IMG/VR virus record: IMGVR_UViG_3300045988_114765
Location: 1 to 64,000 of that record
Length of the DNA stretch: 64,000 nt
Source of the DNA: a virus
Strand: one strand, 5' to 3'
Shown here: positions 1 through 13,235 of the stretch, piece by piece
Position numbering within the stretch: position 1 is the stretch's first letter
Layout: each line of letters starts with the position of its first letter
Translations under genes and position numbers: made by a program
Notes under the pieces: generated by a model
Database searches by the model: none
What the model was told of the DNA's origin: nothing
The model's input: only the letters and a program-made list of their open reading frames with translations

Positions 1-38
1 AATCCAACCCCCTATCAACAAAATTCAACTCCCTACCC

Positions 39-135
39 ACAAAATTCAATAGATAAGCGTTTTAAAACAGCATTATGTATATCATTTCCACAAAATTCAA
101 TATGATAAGCGTTTTAAAACAGCATTATATAGGTT
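39..135. repeat. Two tandem ~50-bp direct repeats (CACAAAATTCAATAGATAAGCGTTTTAAAACAGCATTAT...), plus a partial third copy at 19-38
   Basis: Near-identical 38-nt cores at 39-76 and 90-127. The CAAAATTCAA(T/C) motif occurs three times. Confidence 0.7.
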
Positions 136-212
136 CCTTCCAACAGATTAAGGGTAGAGGACTGCATTATGTGAGTATTTTTTTTTTAAGCGGGATGTTT
201 AACAATTAAAAT

Positions 213-413
213 ATGGATGGTATGAACGTATATGACTTTGCGCCTGACTTAGATTTGAGTAAGGAGGTAGAAGGTTCTATTTTCGGGGTAAAAGGAATAG
301 AAGGCAGTGATGGTATAGTATATGCTAAGGTAGTTAGCTGTGTAGACGTTAAGGATTACAGTTGTGATAGGTGTATTTTTTATGATTGTTATAAGGATAA
401 ATGTTTATTATAG
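213..413 (+). CDS. hypothetical protein (66 aa, Cys-rich C-terminus)
   Basis: ORF only; ATG at 213. Confidence 0.35.
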   Translation: MDGMNVYDFAPDLDLSKEVEGSIFGVKGIEGSDGIVYAKVVSCVDVKDYSCDRCIFYDCYKDKCLL

Positions 414-591
414 CGTAGTGATAGTTGTATAGATGGAGATTTGGGTTTGTAGGTACGAACAGGCTGCCATAGAGGGGGAGTAGGCGGCGCCTTGGGCTAA
501 GGCCTGCGGTTGTAGGTGGAACGTAGGTCGGAGCAGAGCCGGAACAGTTTATTGTGGAACTAAAAAAAAATAAAAAGGAGGAGATAGCGAT

Positions 592-672
592 ATGAAAAAG
601 GCATTTAAGATATTTTCTATTATGTTTGTCATAGAAATAGTGCTGATAGCTATTTTAGATGCTATGGCGTAA
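592..672 (+). CDS. small hydrophobic peptide (26 aa, MKKAFKIFSIMFVIEIVLIAILDAMA)
   Basis: Strong SD (AAGGAGGA) 9 nt upstream of the ATG; lies inside a GC-rich non-coding leader. Confidence 0.3.
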   Translation: MKKAFKIFSIMFVIEIVLIAILDAMA

Positions 673-771
673 GTGAGAAAAATTTCTTCATTAATTTTCT
701 TATGCTTTAGACAGAATGCTCCCATCTGCGAAGATCGGAGCATTTGCTTTATGGGATTCATGGTGCAGCAA

Positions 772-810
772 GTCGGTTCGATTCCGGCGATCTCACACAA
801 CATTAAAATA
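772..810 (+). ncRNA. tRNA T-arm/acceptor-like element (GTCGG-TTCGATT-CCGGC + GATCTCACACAACATTAAAA); a full cloverleaf could not be reconstructed
   Basis: Canonical GGTTCGATTCC T-loop with a 5-bp stem. A near-identical motif recurs at 2011-2050. Confidence 0.3.
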
Positions 811-819
811 GGGAAGAAC

Positions 820-1224
820 ATGTTAAAAGAAGAATTTGAAGAACTGATTAAAAGGGAGGTAAACGAAAATCAGTATAAAAACATAGAAACGGCATACGAG
901 GCTTTGCCGGAGTATATGGATAAGATGTATTTAGCAAGTGCTATTTCAAATGATATTGGGAAAGCTATTAATGTCTTATCGTTTTTAGGATCGCATATAA
1001 GCGAGTTAATGGGTTCGATAATAATCGAAAGGCAAAAGGTGGAATCATGTGCCTATGATTTAATAAACAAATCGCATGAGGAGGATGACTTGAAAGCAAG
1101 AGAGATTGCCGTGCGATTAATAGGAGAGAGGGAAACAGTGGCATACACAGTAAAAGAAGGGCTGCCATTGTGGAAACAAGATAAAAAGTTTATAATAGAA
1201 TTAATAAAGGAGGATAGAAAATGA
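820..1224 (+). CDS. hypothetical protein (134 aa; start moved from GTG 673 to ATG 820)
   Basis: The upstream part of the ORF overlaps the structured RNA motif; ATG 820 (MLKEEFEEL) is in frame. Confidence 0.5.
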   Translation: MLKEEFEELIKREVNENQYKNIETAYEALPEYMDKMYLASAISNDIGKAINVLSFLGSHISELMGSIIIERQKVESCAYDLINKSHEEDDLKAREIAVRLIGERETVAYTVKEGLPLWKQDKKFIIELIKEDRK

Positions 1225-1568
1225 AAGACGGTATTGTATTGCATCCAGAGTATGGGTTGAATCCATCCATAGAACTATGCATAGTATGCGGTGAAGAGAT
1301 GGGGATTGCTTTATTAGGGAATAACATCAAAGGGCAGGCGCCGCATCATATATGCACGGGAGAAATATGTGACAATTGCAAAAAGATAATAGATGACGGA
1401 GGTTGTTTTATTATCGAAGTTGAGGATGGATCAGATCAAAAGAATCCGTATCGTACAGGAAGATATTGCGCGATAAAGAAAGAAGCAGCAAAGAAAATAC
1501 TTGGACAGGAGCATAGTATTGTGTACATGGAAAAGTCTGCGTACAGTCAAATAATACCACAAAAATAA
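1221..1568 (+). CDS. hypothetical Cys-rich (zinc-ribbon-like) protein, 115 aa
   Basis: AAGGAGG SD upstream; CxxC...CxxC pairs; ATGA overlap with the upstream gene. Confidence 0.55.
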   Translation: MKDGIVLHPEYGLNPSIELCIVCGEEMGIALLGNNIKGQAPHHICTGEICDNCKKIIDDGGCFIIEVEDGSDQKNPYRTGRYCAIKKEAAKKILGQEHSIVYMEKSAYSQIIPQK

Positions 1569-1624
1569 AGAAAGATATGTTTACAAAAGAAGAGCGATTA
1601 TTCATATGAAAAAAGGTATATGAG

Positions 1625-1891
1625 ATGATTGATAGGTTAGAGGATGGGGAATACATATGTGTTGCGTTAAGAAATGTAGTGTTTATGTATTTCAAAACAC
1701 ATAAAAATATCTATGAGTTTCGTTCAGACGAAATGGTGAGAATATATTTCCCGGAATTGGAGGAGAAGATAAGTATGGCCACAGAACCAGAGGAAACAAG
1801 AACGTTTTATGGGTGGTTTGGTTGTCTTAGTCCAGAAACGAAGGAGGTAAGGCTGAATATTGTGAAAGATATTATAAAAGAATTAGAATAG
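1625..1891 (+). CDS. hypothetical protein, 88 aa
   Basis: ORF only. Confidence 0.45.
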   Translation: MIDRLEDGEYICVALRNVVFMYFKTHKNIYEFRSDEMVRIYFPELEEKISMATEPEETRTFYGWFGCLSPETKEVRLNIVKDIIKELE

Positions 1892-2010
1892 TATTTTTGT
1901 TAATCTATTTTATTCATCAAATTAAGTTTTGGGTTTTGGCATGTCGGTTCGTGAGGATAGGCATGCCTATTTCTGCATCATAGAGGGGATGACGCGGCGT
2001 GCCGGTGCGT

Positions 2011-2050
2011 ATGTGCCGGTCCTGGTTCGATTCTGGGCATCTCACAAACA
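2011..2050 (+). ncRNA. second tRNA T-arm/acceptor-like element (CCTGG-TTCGATT-CTGGG + CATCTCACAAACAATAAAA) within a GC-rich structured region spanning 1921-2040
   Basis: Motif shared with 772-810. Preceded by a 14-bp palindrome ATAGGCATGCCTAT at 1947-1960. Confidence 0.3.
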
Positions 2051-2066
2051 ATAAAACAAAAAAGTT

Positions 2067-2300
2067 ATGAGAATATATAAGAATGATATTATAAAGGCGT
2101 CAGCAATAAGCACCGGAGCCGACAGAGGCGTGTTGCTGTGTTCAATAACAGATTCAGGCTTTACGTCTATAGCGGGCGTAATATCGGCTGCTAAGGATAG
2201 GTTACCAAACGAAGATCACAAGAAGATGGTTTTTGAAATCTTGAATGATACGAAAAAAGAGTACGGAAGATATAATAATTGCGGAACAAAAGTATTGTAA
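2067..2300 (+). CDS. hypothetical protein, 77 aa
   Basis: ORF only. Confidence 0.4.
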   Translation: MRIYKNDIIKASAISTGADRGVLLCSITDSGFTSIAGVISAAKDRLPNEDHKKMVFEILNDTKKEYGRYNNCGTKVL

Positions 2301-2419
2301 TAAAGAGTAGAAAACAATATGTTTATGTAATATTAGTTTTTTCATTTTTATTGAAAGGAGCGCCGGCCTGTGAAGGTATGCGCTCTTTGTATTTGTATAA
2401 TGCATAAAACAATAATAAT

Positions 2420-2674
2420 ATGACAGAGAATAGTATAGACGTAAATATCGTACCTGTAAAGAATGGTATGAAACGTGTTGTGGTATCATATTACCATTAT
2501 TCACGCAAGGAGAAAGATCGCATGAGTTCCCAAACGGATTACGTTTGGGAAACAAAGAATGAAGAAATGTTTAAATACTTTGAGGCCAGGAGGACAAAAG
2601 TATTTTATAGTCAGATTCGTGCCATGTGTAGATTCTATGGCAAGAAAAATGTACGTAAATACAAAAAGTTATGA
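2420..2674 (+). CDS. hypothetical protein, 84 aa
   Basis: ORF only; ATGA overlap with the next gene. Confidence 0.4.
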   Translation: MTENSIDVNIVPVKNGMKRVVVSYYHYSRKEKDRMSSQTDYVWETKNEEMFKYFEARRTKVFYSQIRAMCRFYGKKNVRKYKKL

Positions 2675-3480
2675 TATTAAAAACGACAACCAACGAGTTT
2701 TGTTTCATTAACGTAAGTTTCTACGAAACAATAGCAGATCCTCGTTATTTCTTTGAACAGGATTATGAAGAGATGCCAGAATATGAGGAGGAATCGGATT
2801 TTGATTTTGATTCTTATTGCAATAAGTTTATTCCTTTTGTACAGGAATGGGCGAATGAGGTAAGTGAACGCCTTTACGGATATGGCGTGAATAGTATAAA
2901 GGTAACATCGGTCGGATATCCGAAAGAATATAATTATGGTACTGATTGGATGAACGTAGAGGTAGAGTTTTGTGATGAATGGAGGCAAAAGATGTTATCT
3001 AACATTAGTAAGATTGTCAATGATGATAAATGCAAGAAGTATGCGGAGACTAATTACCGGTCGGTATCAGGATACATCTTTTTAGGACCTGAAGATTTAA
3101 AGGAATTTGAAAAGGAAATAATAGAAAGAAAGTCGGATTCCGGATATGATGTAACAATATTATTAAATATGTATCTAACTTTGGCTTTTGTAAAAGAATT
3201 TGGATTTAAAGCCGGAGAAGCATGGAGTGAAATAACAGAATATGCTTACGAATGTTTATTGTATTCCGATTTTGCAACAACAGAGATGCTTATACCGGAA
3301 GGTTCGGAGCATTTATTCAAAGACGTTTACACGGCAAAGGCCGACGAATTATATCATCATGTCCTGGATAAATTCGGATGGGCGTGGCGTGATCCGAAAT
3401 ATAAGTCAGAAACAGAATTATGCGCGATGCTAAAGTGGGCAAAAGAAAAAGGCTTGACCATTGAAGAGTTAAGTATTTAA
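2671..3480 (+). CDS. hypothetical acidic protein, 269 aa
   Basis: Long ORF with an acidic N-terminal stretch. Confidence 0.6.
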   Translation: MILKTTTNEFCFINVSFYETIADPRYFFEQDYEEMPEYEEESDFDFDSYCNKFIPFVQEWANEVSERLYGYGVNSIKVTSVGYPKEYNYGTDWMNVEVEFCDEWRQKMLSNISKIVNDDKCKKYAETNYRSVSGYIFLGPEDLKEFEKEIIERKSDSGYDVTILLNMYLTLAFVKEFGFKAGEAWSEITEYAYECLLYSDFATTEMLIPEGSEHLFKDVYTAKADELYHHVLDKFGWAWRDPKYKSETELCAMLKWAKEKGLTIEELSI

Positions 3481-5564: not shown

Positions 5565-5601
5565 CCGGCACTGGTCTGTGAAGATAGGTGCCGTTTTTTT
5601 T
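5565..5601 (+). terminator. rho-independent terminator (CGGCAC...GTGCCG + T8)
   Basis: 6-bp GC stem followed by TTTTTTTT, 20 nt after the stop of 5134-5544. Confidence 0.6.
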
Positions 5602-6734: not shown

Positions 6735-6909
6735 AAAGGATTATGAAAAGTATCTTAACTCCATATCTCCAGATAGAGACGATGAGGCATGGATCATTGG
6801 AGGAAAGAACAGGTATTGCGGTAGAGAGAATTATGGCACTATGATCAAAAGGTATGATCCTATTGGTTTTAATGTAGGATACAGGGAGTGGGTAGAACAG
6901 CCAGAGTAA
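6721..6909 (+). CDS. hypothetical protein, 62 aa
   Basis: ORF only. Confidence 0.4.
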   Translation: MGKSRKDYEKYLNSISPDRDDEAWIIGGKNRYCGRENYGTMIKRYDPIGFNVGYREWVEQPE

Positions 6910-6937
6910 GGCGGCGCCTGCCCTGCCATGAGGTCGG

Positions 6938-6957
6938 CCTGGCTGTCTGTGGCCAGG
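6938..6957 (+). terminator. GC hairpin (CCTGGC-tgtctgtg-GCCAGG) in a GC-rich spacer; possible terminator, no T-run
   Basis: Inverted repeat seen directly in the sequence. Confidence 0.3.
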
Positions 6958-7011
6958 ACCGTACATTAGTCAGATAGTGAACGACGAAAACAATACAAAT
7001 GTTTGTTAATT

Positions 7012-10549: not shown

Positions 10550-10963
10550 ATGGGATATATATGTACAAGATGTGGTGGAACAAAGGTTGCTTGTAAAGCC
10601 ATAGTAAATCCGAATACCAGAGAAATAATAGATTATTTTGATGGATCTTTCGCGCATGCTATTTGCGGGGATTGTGAAAATGAGGTAATAATATCTAACG
10701 TTGAAGAAGTCAAACATGAAATTGATTTAAGATTTCATGAATTTGTAGAAAGAACAGGTAGGGAGCCTGAATACGTAGAATGTCAGATTGTATGGAAGGA
10801 GACAGGAGACGATAAAAGAGCGACAATCAGACTATCGCTGAGTATCAACGATGATGATGATGATGATGTTTTTTATTATTGTAATGGGATAGAATCATTT
10901 AAGCAACTTGCTGAATACGGGATGGGAGAATTTATCGTAACATTTTGTTGGAGTTTCTTTTAA
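10550..10963 (+). CDS. hypothetical zinc-ribbon protein with a poly-Asp stretch, 137 aa
   Basis: CxxC...CxxC; DDDDDD run. Confidence 0.5.
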   Translation: MGYICTRCGGTKVACKAIVNPNTREIIDYFDGSFAHAICGDCENEVIISNVEEVKHEIDLRFHEFVERTGREPEYVECQIVWKETGDDKRATIRLSLSINDDDDDDVFYYCNGIESFKQLAEYGMGEFIVTFCWSFF

Positions 10964-11001
10964 GAAATACATTCAGTTATCATTTTTTAATAACATATCT
11001 T

Positions 11002-11394
11002 ATGAAAACACAAGAAGAATATGCCCATGAAATTGACGAAATCGTTCGCCGGGATGTAGAGAGCTGCCAGAGTGACCGGTTTATAATCGACAAGGAGATA
11101 TTTATGCAGCCAGAGAATAAGAACAAGGCATTTATTTTGGGAACAAGAAAGACCGGGTGCGATATGATCGTACTTGGAGGTACTAATTGCAGTGGATCCA
11201 ATATGGATTGGCTTTTCGGTTGCCTTGGCAATGAAAACTTCTATGTATGCCAGCCAGTATCTTTCTATAAATCACAACAAGAAATCCAGAAAGTAAATCC
11301 GCTTTATGCTTTCAAGGTGGCCACTGCTTATTTTAGAGAACAAGGGAAGGTTCCGGTATTTGAAGATAGTAACTGTAGATTAATAAAACTATGA
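11002..11394 (+). CDS. hypothetical protein, 130 aa
   Basis: ORF only. Confidence 0.45.
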   Translation: MKTQEEYAHEIDEIVRRDVESCQSDRFIIDKEIFMQPENKNKAFILGTRKTGCDMIVLGGTNCSGSNMDWLFGCLGNENFYVCQPVSFYKSQQEIQKVNPLYAFKVATAYFREQGKVPVFEDSNCRLIKL

Positions 11395-11798
11395 GCATAA
11401 AAGTAATAAGATACAGGTTGCCATCTTGTTGGGCTTGTCCGTTAATCAATGATGATTACACTGGATTAACGGATGAAGAATGTGAGGAAATCCATAAAAT
11501 ACAAGATATGGAAAGATTGAATTTTGAAACATTGTTTCGTATCGTAAGATGGGATTACAACCGTTGCTTTAAGGATGAATCACTGGACAAGGATTTGTTC
11601 GTAGAAAAATACGGACGGGTAATAGGTGAACATTATTATAACAAGTTTGTCCATGAATTTGACGGAAATATTCTGAAGATGGTTGATTACTTCAGAGGTT
11701 CCGAAAAAGAGGGGCAAGTCTTCTGCGATATGATAACCGAACGTATTGAAAAATACGAAAAGAGAATGTCATATGATAAAGGTAAGTTAAACAATTAA
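11391..11798 (+). CDS. hypothetical protein, 135 aa
   Basis: ORF only. Confidence 0.55.
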   Translation: MSIKVIRYRLPSCWACPLINDDYTGLTDEECEEIHKIQDMERLNFETLFRIVRWDYNRCFKDESLDKDLFVEKYGRVIGEHYYNKFVHEFDGNILKMVDYFRGSEKEGQVFCDMITERIEKYEKRMSYDKGKLNN

Positions 11799-13007: not shown

Positions 13008-13235
13008 GTTGTATATAATCACCTTAAATTTAATGGCCCATTATATGAACGAACTAAACAAAGCATTCACTTATGTTTCGGCATCTCCCCTCTCCTCGAC
13101 GTGGTATTGGTCCAGTACTGAGAGCAGCCAGGCCGTCGCGTGGTACGTGGTCTTCTCCAGTGGCCTCACGGGCACCGGCAACAAGCACATCGGAGACATG
13201 GTTCGGGCGGTAATTGATTTTTAAAAAGGATTACA

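What the first reader, a model, noticed from the sequence alone, without database searches (positions are those of the whole stretch)
745..2050. Two copies of a tRNA T-arm/acceptor-like 34-nt motif in GC-rich structured leaders upstream of early genes
GGTTCGATTCCGGCGATCTCACACAACATTAAAA (774-810) and GGTTCGATTCTGGGCATCTCACAAACAATAAAA (2014-2050) share a canonical T-loop plus an acceptor-like 3' strand. Each lies at the 3' end of a GC-rich non-coding stretch (420-545 and 700-800; 1921-2035), in an otherwise roughly 35% GC genome. Each is followed within 25-35 nt by a gene start. I could not complete a canonical cloverleaf. The first copy can form a T-arm plus a 7-bp acceptor 'minihelix' (TGGGATT at 752-758 pairing with GATCTCA at 789-795). 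Candidate explanations are degenerate or unusual tRNAs, tRNA-3'-half attP-like remnants, tRNA-mimic regulatory RNAs, or a phage-specific promoter/processing signal. A 26-aa SD-led hydrophobic peptide (592-672) sits in the same leader.
Basis: seen in the sequence. Interest (0 to 1): 0.6.

Follow-up and report, generated by a model that had tools for sequence, protein, structure and literature searches.

The report
tRNA-like half-molecules between phage genes
Two conserved RNA elements in a human-gut phage copy only the top half of a tRNA and sit where the phage's real tRNAs would sit between genes, so they most likely make the host's tRNA-trimming enzymes cut the phage's long messenger RNAs into pieces.

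Summary
A 23-nt T-loop/acceptor motif occurs exactly twice in the window (775-797 and 2024-2046, + strand; 0 expected by chance).

Each copy belongs to a tRNA-like 'top half': an acceptor stem, a T-arm with a canonical GGUUCGAUUC loop and a conserved GG in the linker. There is no anticodon arm and no encoded CCA. The elements span 752-796 and 1985-2045.

Each is preceded by a hairpin capped by a GNRA tetraloop (714-745, 1938-1967). Each is followed by a 21-23-nt A-rich leader and a start codon.

Neither is a tRNA, tmRNA, YrlA or any Rfam family, and no bacterial tRNA shares the 3' half, so the attP idea fails.

The unit is conserved in more than 100 related gut-phage contigs, and substitutions keep the pairing. 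The two copies differ by compensatory stem changes. An unrelated freshwater phage has the same layout.

The phage's true tRNA cluster has the same arrangement: the same hairpin, 6 nt, the tRNAs, then 17 A-rich nt and an ATG.

Best reading (about 0.45): these are tRNA-derived processing signals, like plant-mitochondrial t-elements, cut by RNase P and RNase Z. No transcript data exist. The function is inferred, and the thermodynamic support is weak.

The parts
714..745 (+). P1 hairpin of unit 1: 9 bp, 1x1 internal loop, 4 bp, GCGA tetraloop. It is terminator-like but followed only by GCUUUA.
   Evidence: Fold. Three pairs show compensatory double changes across 35 distinct homologs, with 98.7% of cells paired. 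It has the same shape as the hairpin upstream of the phage's real tRNA-Met.
752..796 (+). tRNA-like element 1 (45 nt). Acceptor 5' strand 752-758 (UGGGAUU); linker 759-771 (CAUGGUGCAGCAA, with an invariant GG); T-arm 772-788 (GUCGG-UUCGAUU-CCGGC); acceptor 3' strand 789-795 (GAUCUCA); discriminator C796. No CCA.
   Evidence: the MFE structure is the minihelix. The T stem stays 100% paired with one-sided changes, and the acceptor is invariant. None of the 20 columns 777-796 varies, against 17-48% at neighbouring third codon positions.
797..819 (+). A-rich trailer/leader of unit 1 (ACAACAUUAAAAUAGGGAAGAAC) up to the ATG at 820. Whole-gene presence/absence polymorphisms start 12-13 nt into it.
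   Evidence: It is similar to the trailer of unit 2.
1938..1967 (+). P1 hairpin of unit 2: 8 bp, 1x1 internal loop, 4 bp, GUGA tetraloop.
   Evidence: Fold. All cells are paired, and 5 pairs vary on one side only via G-U. It is missing in one relative, L013.
1985..2045 (+). tRNA-like element 2 (61 nt). Acceptor 5' strand 1985-1991 (GGGGAUG; position 1 faces A); linker 1992-2000 (ACGCGGCGU); optional 8-bp hairpin with a GUAU loop 2001-2020; T-arm 2021-2037 (CCUGG-UUCGAUU-CUGGG); acceptor 3' strand 2038-2044 (CAUCUCA); discriminator C2045. No CCA.
   Evidence: 99.1% of cells are paired with 18 extra pair types. T-stem variants are CCUGG/CUGGG, UCUGG/CCAGG and CCCGG/CCGGG. The inner hairpin is deleted in L041 and L074. 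Relaxed ARAGORN calls it only at 70% threshold, among obvious false positives.
2046..2066 (+). A-rich trailer/leader of unit 2 (AAACAAUAAAACAAAAAAGUU) up to the ATG at 2067. In csAssE-Sib and about one third of relatives an extra gene is inserted here.
   Evidence: The inserted gene is a paralog of window ORF 213-413.
2356..2387 (+). Related hairpin of the same family (8 bp, 2x2 internal loop, 4 bp, GUGA). No tRNA-like module follows it. A U-rich tract and an ATAAAACAA..ATG leader like that of unit 2 come next.
   Evidence: Hit of the copy-1 covariance model at E=3.5e-4. Fold. Repeat D6.
5567..5592 (+). Related hairpin (6 bp, 1x1 internal loop, 4 bp, GUGA) followed by U8. This member of the family is a canonical intrinsic terminator.
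592..672 (+). 26-aa hydrophobic ORF with an AAGGAGG Shine-Dalgarno site, just upstream of unit 1. It is context only and probably a real small gene.

Best explanation
The two elements are paralogous, tRNA-derived mimics of the top half of a tRNA, transcribed on the + strand as part of a multi-gene early or middle transcript. They keep what tRNA end-processing enzymes recognise. That is an acceptor stem stacked on a T stem, a canonical T-loop, and a GG in the linker that can take the place of G18-G19 at the elbow. They have lost the anticodon arm and encode no CCA.

Inferred mechanism: host RNase P cuts at the 5' side of the acceptor stem (before 752, and before about 1985/1986). This leaves the upstream mRNA ending 6-18 nt after a stable GNRA-capped hairpin, which would protect its 3' end. 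An RNase Z-type activity cuts after the discriminator (C796, C2045). This frees the downstream mRNA with a short A-rich leader of 21-23 nt before its start codon. A 45-nt and a 61-nt tRNA-like RNA are released and could receive CCA. The elements thus punctuate the transcript in the way the phage's genuine tRNAs must, because those tRNAs sit in the same slot.

As conserved sequence islands at gene boundaries, the elements also act as recombination points for gene gain, loss and deletion.

What is shown: the anatomy, the conservation, the pair-preserving variation, the shared layout with real tRNAs, and the recombination junctions. What is inferred: transcription across the elements, and cleavage by RNase P and RNase Z.
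For: (1) The motif occurs twice against 0 expected. A structural scan for a T-arm plus acceptor minihelix finds only these two credible sites in 64 kb.
(2) More than 119 related gut-phage contigs carry both copies, and the phage is widespread in human-gut assemblies.
(3) Variation keeps the pairing. Copy 1 has 99.3% of cells paired, with 3 compensatory pairs in P1. Copy 2 has 99.1% paired, with 18 extra pair types. All 7 differences between the window and csAssE-Sib within copy 2 preserve pairs.
(4) Many helix positions are G-U, which pairs only in + strand RNA.
(5) Between the paralogs the T-loop and acceptor 3' strand are identical, while the T stem between them differs with compensation. 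Pair 49-65 is G-C in one and C-G in the other; pair 7-66 is U-G in one and G-C in the other. This argues against simple gene conversion and for selection on structure.
(6) The core of copy 1 has 0 of 20 variable columns, against 17-48% at neighbouring third codon positions.
(7) An unrelated, roughly 50% GC freshwater phage (L035, L178, L192, L194) has hairpin, 2 nt, GGGAUG, 31 nt, T-arm, UAUCUCA, then 30 nt and a gene start.
(8) The phage's real tRNA cluster has the same syntax. A hairpin of 9 bp/1x1/4 bp/GUGA is followed by 6 nt and then tRNA-Met-Gln-Arg-Cys. After 17 A-rich nt comes the ATG of the next gene, on the same strand, and no CCA is encoded.
(9) The copy-1 linker CAUGGUGCAGCAAG resembles the D-loop and 3' D-stem of tRNA-Met, AGUGGUGAAAGCAAG.
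(10) Plant-mitochondrial t-elements were found by the same GGTTCRANYCC motif and are associated with mRNA ends attributed to RNase P/Z (PMC1920247). A tRNA-like YrlA with a 7-bp acceptor stem is cut by RNase P and receives CCA (PMC4201824).
Against: There are no transcript or cleavage data. Folding energy is no better than shuffled sequence for the isolated elements (z about 0). In the MFE structure of copy 2 the weak T stem, which has two G-U pairs, is not formed. In the longer context of copy 1 an alternative hairpin competes with the acceptor stem.

Most variation is one-sided through G-U. The shuffle control for copy 2 therefore does not separate structure from relatedness. The copy-1 acceptor never varies, so it says nothing either way.

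The related contigs are close, at least about 85-90% identical, so part of the conservation is simply recency. Copy 2 has a G.A or A.A at position 1:72, and some variants have G7.A66. The discriminator is C.

The P1 hairpins belong to a terminator-like family. If they terminate efficiently, the elements would be transcribed only by read-through. The copy-1 covariance model detects copy 2 only weakly (10.4 bits, E=7.5).
Confidence: 0.45

Rival explanations
1. The released tRNA-like RNAs are the point. They act in trans as tRNA mimics that bind a tRNA-recognising factor. One possibility is a decoy for a host immune effector that attacks tRNA acceptor ends or elbows. Another is a ligand for the phage's own RNA toolkit (Ro60, PNK/phosphatase, CCA-adding-like enzyme). 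A third is alanylation through G3:U70. Processing would only be the way they are made.
For: The closest complete genome encodes Ro60 with a YrlA-like RNA next to it. It also encodes PNK/3'-phosphatase, NrnA and a poly(A)/CCA-type nucleotidyltransferase, so this lineage invests in tRNA and RNA-repair biology. G2-C71, G3-U70 and G4-C69 are invariant in copy 1 and present in the freshwater analog. Two copies with different linkers are retained in nearly all relatives.
Against: G3-U70 becomes A3-U70 in some copy-2 variants. The discriminator is C, not A. No partner protein is adjacent, and the neighbouring ORFs have no known family. Ro60 lies about 75 kb away and has its own candidate Y RNA. The CCA-adding-like gene is missing from the window's genome. 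Nothing here tests binding or charging.
Confidence: 0.2
2. They are decaying tRNA pseudogenes: remnants of tRNA genes that lost their anticodon arms and have no present function. They look conserved only because the sampled phages are closely related.
For: The acceptor and T-loop match genuine phage tRNA-Gln (UGGGAUA...UAUCUCA). The copy-1 linker resembles a D-loop. The elements sit where tRNAs sit. Thermodynamic support is weak. Internal deletions still occur in L041, L074 and L013.
Against: The two paralogs have diverged strongly elsewhere, yet they keep an identical T-loop, an identical acceptor 3' strand and compensated stems. High-frequency substitutions in the stems all keep pairing. The core is as constrained as, or more constrained than, first and second codon positions nearby. 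The same top-half-only design occurs in an unrelated phage.
Confidence: 0.15
3. The conserved blocks work at the DNA level. They would be promoter or boundary cassettes, like the promoter-early stem-loop (PeSL) modules of T4-type phages, that drive expression of the next small gene and mediate shuffling of gene cassettes. On this reading the tRNA resemblance is historical.
For: Whole-gene presence/absence polymorphisms start 12-13 nt after each element. L102 is a copy1/copy2 hybrid that lacks the genes between them. The AT-rich 46 nt upstream of P1 in unit 2 is very conserved, with 3 of 46 columns variable. A third unit, hairpin plus leader without a tRNA-like part, exists at 2356-2419.
Against: Promoter-like sites are no more frequent than in shuffles, and none lies in the elements. 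The substitution pattern follows RNA pairing rules, including G-U, on the + strand only. Recombination at conserved islands is expected whatever their function, so this reading is compatible with the best explanation rather than exclusive of it.
Confidence: 0.1
4. They are attP-like copies of the 3' half of a host tRNA gene, used for site-specific integration.
For: Phage attachment sites often duplicate the T-arm-to-3'-end segment of a tRNA gene (established knowledge).
Against: A degenerate 22-mer covering both copies hits only 6 places in one genome each of 185,579 species. None is a tRNA, and one is the phage itself on a 3.9-kb contig of a metagenome-assembled genome. Both acceptor strands are present, not just the 3' half. 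No integrase is annotated in the closest complete genome. Two different copies 1.2 kb apart do not fit an attP.
Confidence: 0.02

Closest known systems
t-elements of plant mitochondria (Forner et al. 2007, PMC1920247)
   Same: They are tRNA-like structures with non-canonical cloverleaves. They were found through the conserved T-arm motif GGTTCRANYCC and lie next to protein-coding genes. Their ends coincide with mRNA 5' and 3' termini attributed to RNase Z and RNase P. Copy 1 matches that motif exactly; copy 2 matches except for the last base.
   Different: The setting is different: a phage of gut bacteria rather than an organelle. Here a GNRA hairpin precedes the element, and no transcript ends have been mapped. 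There is no sequence homology, so the relationship is analogy, not family membership.
mascRNA / MEN-beta tRNA-like elements at the 3' end of MALAT1 and NEAT1 (from my own knowledge, not checked here)
   Same: A tRNA-like module lies directly downstream of a stabilising RNA structure. RNase P cleavage creates the mature 3' end of the upstream RNA. RNase Z and the CCA-adding enzyme then finish the small tRNA-like RNA.
   Different: Those are eukaryotic nuclear lncRNAs. The stabiliser there is a triple helix, not a hairpin. mascRNA keeps a cloverleaf-like fold with an anticodon-arm analog.
Bacterial and phage Y RNA-like YrlA (Chen et al. 2014, PMC4201824; Rfam RF02553)
   Same: It is a non-coding RNA with a tRNA-like T-arm, found in bacteria and phages. 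The M. smegmatis YrlA, which has a 7-bp acceptor stem, is cut by RNase P and receives CCA. The same phage lineage encodes Ro60.
   Different: In YrlA the RNA ends form a Ro60-binding stem and the acceptor is closed by a loop. YrlA keeps a D-arm and is encoded next to rsr. The elements here have normal tRNA strand order and no D-arm. They give no YrlA hit and lie about 75 kb from Ro60, which has its own candidate YrlA.
Genuine phage tRNA-Gln(UUG), e.g. in L160/L162/L172/L189
   Same: The acceptor is UGGGAUA/UAUCUCA with U1-A72 and G3-U70, and the T-loop is GGUUCGAUUCC. This is the closest real tRNA to both elements.
   Different: Those are full 74-nt cloverleaves with D and anticodon arms and are called by ARAGORN. 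The elements are 45 and 61 nt, lack an anticodon loop, and are not called.
tRNA-like domain of tmRNA
   Same: It has an acceptor stem with G3-U70, a T-arm, an unstructured D-loop analog, and another helix in place of the anticodon arm.
   Different: The elements have no mRNA-like domain or pseudoknots, no A73-CCA, and no ARAGORN tmRNA call. Rfam matches only the 17-nt T-arm, at E=4.
PeSL (promoter-early stem-loop) cassettes of T4-type phages (from my own knowledge, not checked here)
   Same: They are short conserved stem-loop-containing blocks that flank small ORFs in a plastic genome region. They mark the junctions of gene gain and loss.
   Different: PeSL contains a sigma-70 early promoter and no tRNA-like module. 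No promoter could be shown here.

Membership tests
tRNA (RF00005 / ARAGORN) | Cloverleaf with D-arm and an anticodon arm bearing a 7-nt loop | tested here: not met
   ARAGORN finds 0 genes in the window. Rfam shows no tRNA hit even at E<=10. Relaxed ARAGORN calls copy 2 only at the 70% threshold, as a 64-nt 'tRNA-Thr' alongside false positives in coding sequence, and never calls copy 1. The inner hairpin has a 4-nt loop, varies, and is deleted in some relatives.
tRNA (RF00005 / ARAGORN) | 7-bp acceptor stem stacked on a 5-bp T stem with a UUCRANY T-loop | tested here: met
   Copy 1 has 7 bp plus 5 bp with UUCGAUU. Copy 2 has 6 bp (plus G.A) plus 5 bp with UUCGAUU.
t-element (plant-mitochondrial type) | GGTTCRANYCC T-arm motif within a non-canonical tRNA-like fold next to a gene | tested here: met
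   Copy 1 is GGTTCGATTCC and copy 2 is GGTTCGATTCT. The definition is taken from PMC1920247.
t-element (plant-mitochondrial type) | Element ends coincide with mapped mRNA termini; cleavage by RNase P / RNase Z | not testable with these tools
   No transcript-end or enzymatic data are available.
YrlA / Y RNA (RF02553) | Match to the family covariance model | tested here: not met
   No YrlA hit at E<=10 in window 1-3000. A separate sub-threshold YrlA hit lies elsewhere in the related genome (28.5 bits).
YrlA / Y RNA (RF02553) | Encoded next to a Ro60 (rsr) gene; RNA ends form the Ro60-binding stem | tested here: not met
   Ro60 lies at 73091-74725 of OR575929 and the elements at about 148-150 kb. 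Strand order is that of a normal tRNA, not the YrlA arrangement (for the definition).
tmRNA | tRNA-like domain joined to an mRNA-like tag ORF and pseudoknots; A73-CCA end | tested here: not met
   ARAGORN finds no tmRNA. Only the 17-nt T-arm matches beta_tmRNA, at E=4. The discriminator is C and no CCA is encoded.
attP / tRNA 3'-half integration site | Sequence identity with the 3' part of a host tRNA gene | tested here: not met
   The genome-contig scan gave 6 hits, none in a tRNA.
attP / tRNA 3'-half integration site | Integrase gene in the phage | tested here: not met
   No integrase appears among the 206 annotated features of OR575929. This relies on the depositor's annotation only.
Intrinsic terminator (for the P1 hairpins) | GC-rich hairpin immediately followed by a U tract | tested here: inconclusive
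   The consensus scan finds none in 1-3000. P1 is followed by GCUUUAU in unit 1 and UAUUUCU in unit 2. The sister hairpin at 5567-5592 has U8.
PeSL-like boundary cassette | Stem-loop plus promoter at junctions of variable small genes | tested here: inconclusive
   Hairpins and gene-indel junctions are present. No promoter signal rises above background.

The most novel reading that the evidence does not exclude
The excised 45/61-nt top-half tRNA mimics are matured with CCA. They then act as trans-acting decoys or cofactors. They might soak up a host anti-phage effector that recognises the tRNA acceptor end or elbow. They might be charged by AlaRS through G3:U70. They might work with the phage's Ro60/PNK/nucleotidyltransferase toolkit. 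Any of these would be a new class of phage-encoded tRNA-mimic RNAs.
Probability: 0.12. Interest if true: 0.85.

Novelty: new variant of a known kind. Interest (0 to 1): 0.55.

Why it matters
If correct, this extends tRNA punctuation to bacteriophages. In that mechanism tRNA-shaped signals recruit RNase P and RNase Z to cut polycistronic RNA. It is known from mitochondria, from plant-mitochondrial t-elements and from MALAT1. The phage version is a stripped-down tRNA top half that no tRNA finder or Rfam model reports.

The finding yields a candidate RNA motif for annotating phage intergenic regions: a GNRA hairpin, then an acceptor/T-arm minihelix, then an A-rich leader. It also gives a concrete hypothesis for how a widespread family of roughly 150-kb human-gut phages sets the ends and stabilities of mRNAs for its small genes. 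Finally it explains why gene cassettes are exchanged exactly at these points. It is directly testable with gut metatranscriptomes and simple in-vitro cleavage assays.

Tried and rejected
Standard tRNA/tmRNA detection found nothing. Rfam found nothing at gathering thresholds or at E<=10; the only hits were a 17-nt T-arm fragment and a chance BTnc231 match. Relaxed ARAGORN is uninformative because it also calls false positives in coding sequence.

A T-loop variant pattern (GGTTCRAAYC...ATCTCAC) in viral contigs gave only chance hits and reverse strands of giant-virus tRNA-Leu genes.

The host-tRNA/attP idea was tested and rejected.

The covariance model built from copy 1 detects copy 2 and the L035 analog only weakly, at E of about 0.7-7.5. 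It could not be used to define a joint family, although it did reveal the related hairpin at 2356-2387.

The promoter/terminator consensus scan showed no enrichment and no site in the elements.

The GC-rich segment 440-560 has no Rfam match. It shows no covariation and is replaced by unrelated sequence in about a third of relatives, so it is not part of the tRNA-like unit.

Neighbouring ORFs have no Pfam family, and their PHROGs matches have unknown function.

I tried looking for transcript-derived contigs through exact-protein look-up. It returned only metagenome DNA assemblies.

Literature searches found no description of such elements in phages. This is absence from the held library only.
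Full report
**Observation**

The window opens with a one-directional array of small + strand ORFs. The motif GGTTCGATTCYGGSSATCTCACA occurs at 775-797 and 2024-2046 and nowhere else in 64 kb, even with 3 mismatches allowed. Shuffles give 0. The two copies are 79% identical over 33 nt. Default ARAGORN and Rfam find nothing in the window. At E<=10 Rfam reports only a 17-nt T-arm fragment.

**Anatomy**

Each motif is the 3' part of a small tRNA-like fold.

- Copy 1 spans 752-796. It consists of UGGGAUU, a 13-nt linker, GUCGG-UUCGAUU-CCGGC, GAUCUCA and then C. That makes a 7-bp acceptor stem and a 5-bp T stem with a textbook T-loop. This fold is the MFE structure of the isolated segment.
- Copy 2 spans 1985-2045. 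It has a 6-bp acceptor stem (GGGAUG/CAUCUC), a 9-nt linker, an extra 8-bp hairpin and the T-arm CCUGG-UUCGAUU-CUGGG.
- Both linkers contain a conserved GG that could replace G18-G19 at the tRNA elbow. This is an inference.
- Neither copy has an anticodon loop or an encoded CCA.
- A custom scan for any T-arm plus acceptor minihelix finds only these two credible sites in the window.

Each element is preceded by a hairpin of one design: 8-9 bp, a 1x1 internal loop, 4 bp and a GNRA tetraloop. These lie at 714-745 and 1938-1967. Each element is followed by a similar A-rich stretch of 21-23 nt and a start codon.

**Relatives**

The closest deposited genome is phage csAssE-Sib (OR575929, human gut, 151 kb), 96.8% identical over this region. 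A pattern scan of IMG/VR returned at least 119 loci. Nearly all belong to one family of 80-250-kb human-gut phage contigs that carry both copies 850-1250 nt apart. The phage is common in gut assemblies.

*Copy 1.* Among 35 distinct versions, 99.3% of pair cells are standard pairs. The P1 hairpin has three pairs with compensatory double changes. The T stem varies on one side only, and the acceptor stem never varies.

*Copy 2.* Among 40 versions, 99.1% of cells are paired. There are 18 additional pair types, all reached through G-U. Because of that, the shuffle control cannot separate structure from relatedness. T-stem states include CCUGG/CUGGG, UCUGG/CCAGG and CCCGG/CCGGG.

Many consensus pairs are G-U, so the helices exist only in + strand RNA.

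*Between the paralogs.* The T-loop and the acceptor 3' strand are identical. The T stem that lies between them differs with compensation (pair 49-65 is G-C versus C-G; pair 7-66 is U-G versus G-C). That is hard to explain by gene conversion and easy to explain by selection on the fold.

*Constraint.* The core of copy 1 shows 0 of 20 variable columns, against 17-48% at third codon positions of the neighbouring genes.

*Independent occurrence.* An unrelated freshwater phage lineage with about 50% GC (L035, L178, L192, L194) has the same plan. A hairpin is followed by 2 nt, GGGAUG, 31 nt, GGUGG-UUCGAUU-CCACC and UAUCUCA. A Zn-ribbon gene starts 30 nt later.

**What it is not**

- *A decoding tRNA.* There is no anticodon arm. 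The inner hairpin of copy 2 has a variable 4-nt loop and is deleted in L041 and L074. Relaxed ARAGORN calls copy 2 only at a threshold where it also calls 'tRNAs' inside genes.
- *An attP-like host tRNA half.* A degenerate 22-mer hits 6 places in 185,579 species genomes. None is a tRNA, and one is the phage itself. No integrase is annotated in csAssE-Sib.
- *tmRNA or YrlA.* See the membership table.

**The key context**

The phage lineage has genuine tRNAs. Met, Gln, Arg and Cys lie about 9 kb upstream on the same strand; Tyr and Lys lie elsewhere. The Met-Gln-Arg-Cys cluster is embedded in the gene array exactly as the elements are.

| Feature | Real tRNA cluster | Copy 1 unit |
|---|---|---|
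| Upstream hairpin | 9 bp/1x1/4 bp/GUGA | 9 bp/1x1/4 bp/GCGA |
| Spacer after the hairpin | 6 nt (UUUUAA) | 6 nt (GCUUUA) |
| Next | tRNA-Met G1 ... tRNA-Cys | tRNA-like element |
| A-rich spacer to the next ATG | 17 nt | 23 nt |

The hairpin and spacer of the real cluster come and the 17-nt spacer. None of these tRNAs encodes CCA.

The copy-1 linker CAUGGUGCAGCAAG resembles the D-loop and 3' D-stem of tRNA-Met. The acceptor and T-loop are closest to genuine phage tRNA-Gln(UUG) genes from other phages. The simplest history is therefore a tRNA gene in this slot that lost its lower half.

Sister hairpins of the same family occur at 2356-2387, with no tRNA-like module, and at 5567-5592, followed by U8, a canonical terminator. 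P1 therefore belongs to a terminator-like hairpin family.

**Mechanism proposed**

Real tRNAs embedded in this operon must be excised by RNase P and a 3' endonuclease, and that excision necessarily cuts the mRNA. The elements keep exactly the parts these enzymes read. It is established knowledge, not tested here, that the acceptor/T-arm minihelix and the elbow suffice for RNase P, RNase Z and the CCA-adding enzyme.

I therefore infer that they are retained as processing signals. RNase P would leave the upstream mRNA ending just after a protective hairpin. RNase Z would give the downstream mRNA a short A-rich leader. This parallels plant-mitochondrial t-elements, which were found by the same GGTTCRANYCC motif (PMC1920247). 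It also parallels the RNase P-cleaved, CCA-tailed tRNA-like YrlA of M. smegmatis (PMC4201824).

My confidence that these are selected, tRNA-derived RNA structures is about 0.8. My confidence that punctuation is their function is about 0.45.

**Side effect at the DNA level**

Whole genes are present or absent starting 12-13 nt after each element. The extra gene that follows copy 2 in csAssE-Sib is a paralog of window ORF 213-413. L102 is a copy1/copy2 hybrid that lacks the genes between them. The conserved islands thus serve as recombination points.

**Weaknesses**

- There are no transcript data.
- Folding energies are not better than shuffles, and the copy-2 T stem is not in the MFE structure.
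- Most covariation is one-sided.
- The sampled relatives are close to one another.
- If the P1 hairpins terminate efficiently, the elements would be reached only by read-through.

**Rivals**

The rivals are a trans-acting mimic or decoy, a dead pseudogene, a DNA-level cassette and attP. They are weighed in their own sections.

The trans-acting reading gains some colour from the lineage's RNA toolkit. csAssE-Sib encodes Ro60 with a candidate YrlA, PNK/phosphatase, NrnA and, in that genome only, a CCA-adding-like enzyme. Nothing links these genes to the elements directly.

**Verdict**

The feature is real and conserved and is not reported by standard tools. It is best described as a phage version of a tRNA-like processing element. 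I rate it a new variant of a known kind and of moderate interest.

Noticed in passing
window 1-150: There are tandem-like direct repeats at the window start: 21-nt units at 1-42, CCACAAAATTCAATA at 37-51 and 88-102, and a 46-nt unit at 52-97 and 104-149. They lie near the end of the deposited linear genome and could be promoters, an origin or terminal-repeat features.
   Followed up: no
window 440-560 and 6909-6960: There is a conserved GC-rich (0.61) ORF-free segment with repeated GTAGG/ATAGA motifs upstream of the 26-aa ORF. About a third of relatives have unrelated sequence there. It has no Rfam match and no covariation. The 11-mer AGGCGGCGCCT recurs at 6909 in a second GC-rich intergenic hairpin region.
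   Followed up: partly
window 2356-2387 and 5567-5592; L002 545-576: A family of intergenic hairpins shares one design: a GC stem, a small internal loop, a 4-bp stem and a G(U/C)GA tetraloop with the consensus YCUGYGAAGR. One is followed by U8, and one sits 6 nt upstream of the real tRNA-Met.
   Followed up: partly
L211 8571-10725 (OR575929 72571-74725): csAssE-Sib encodes a Ro60 ortholog. It is preceded by tRNA-Tyr, tRNA-Lys and a sub-threshold YrlA (Y RNA-like) match (28.5 bits, local E=2.8e-4). The YrlA-like RNA and both tRNAs each follow a repeated GGTGATGG...(G)TTACTTCG(A/G) motif. This lies outside the window.
   Followed up: partly
L212 23063-23725; window 13024-13221: csAssE-Sib has a 220-aa poly(A) polymerase/CCA-adding-type nucleotidyltransferase. 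The window's genome lacks it: a deletion leaves only the last 66 codons of the neighbouring DUF3988 gene. All the phage tRNAs and both tRNA-like elements lack encoded CCA.
   Followed up: partly
L190 2615-4409: Polynucleotide kinase/3'-phosphatase and NrnA-like phosphodiesterase genes lie between the tRNA cluster and the genome end. They suggest an RNA-repair capacity of the kind used against anticodon nucleases (depositor's annotation only).
   Followed up: no
L159 about 10950-11650 (- strand); also L157, L163, L167, L169, L174, L181, L187: Another group of roughly 100-kb gut phages has an ORF-poor region of about 900 nt. It contains a 76-nt, tRNA-length element (UGAGAGU, 44 nt, ACUGG-UUCGAUU-CCAGU, GAUCUCA, G). 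ARAGORN and Rfam do not call it. It may be part of a larger structured RNA.
   Followed up: partly
L160, L162, L172, L189: Genuine phage tRNA-Gln(UUG) genes have a G3-U70 wobble in the acceptor stem (UGGGAUA/UAUCUCA). In E. coli that pair is the major alanine identity element.
   Followed up: no
L210 31751-33816, 44986-46125; L211 190-1413: The csAssE-Sib annotation lists a diversity-generating retroelement (VR/TR/IMH plus reverse transcriptase) next to a tail-fibre gene. It also lists two TnpB genes.
   Followed up: no
L125 (Veillonella sp. MAG HRGM_Genome_0346, 3.9-kb contig): A contig binned into a Veillonella metagenome-assembled genome is simply this phage's copy-1 region. It is a weak hint about the host at best and may be a binning artefact.
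   Followed up: no
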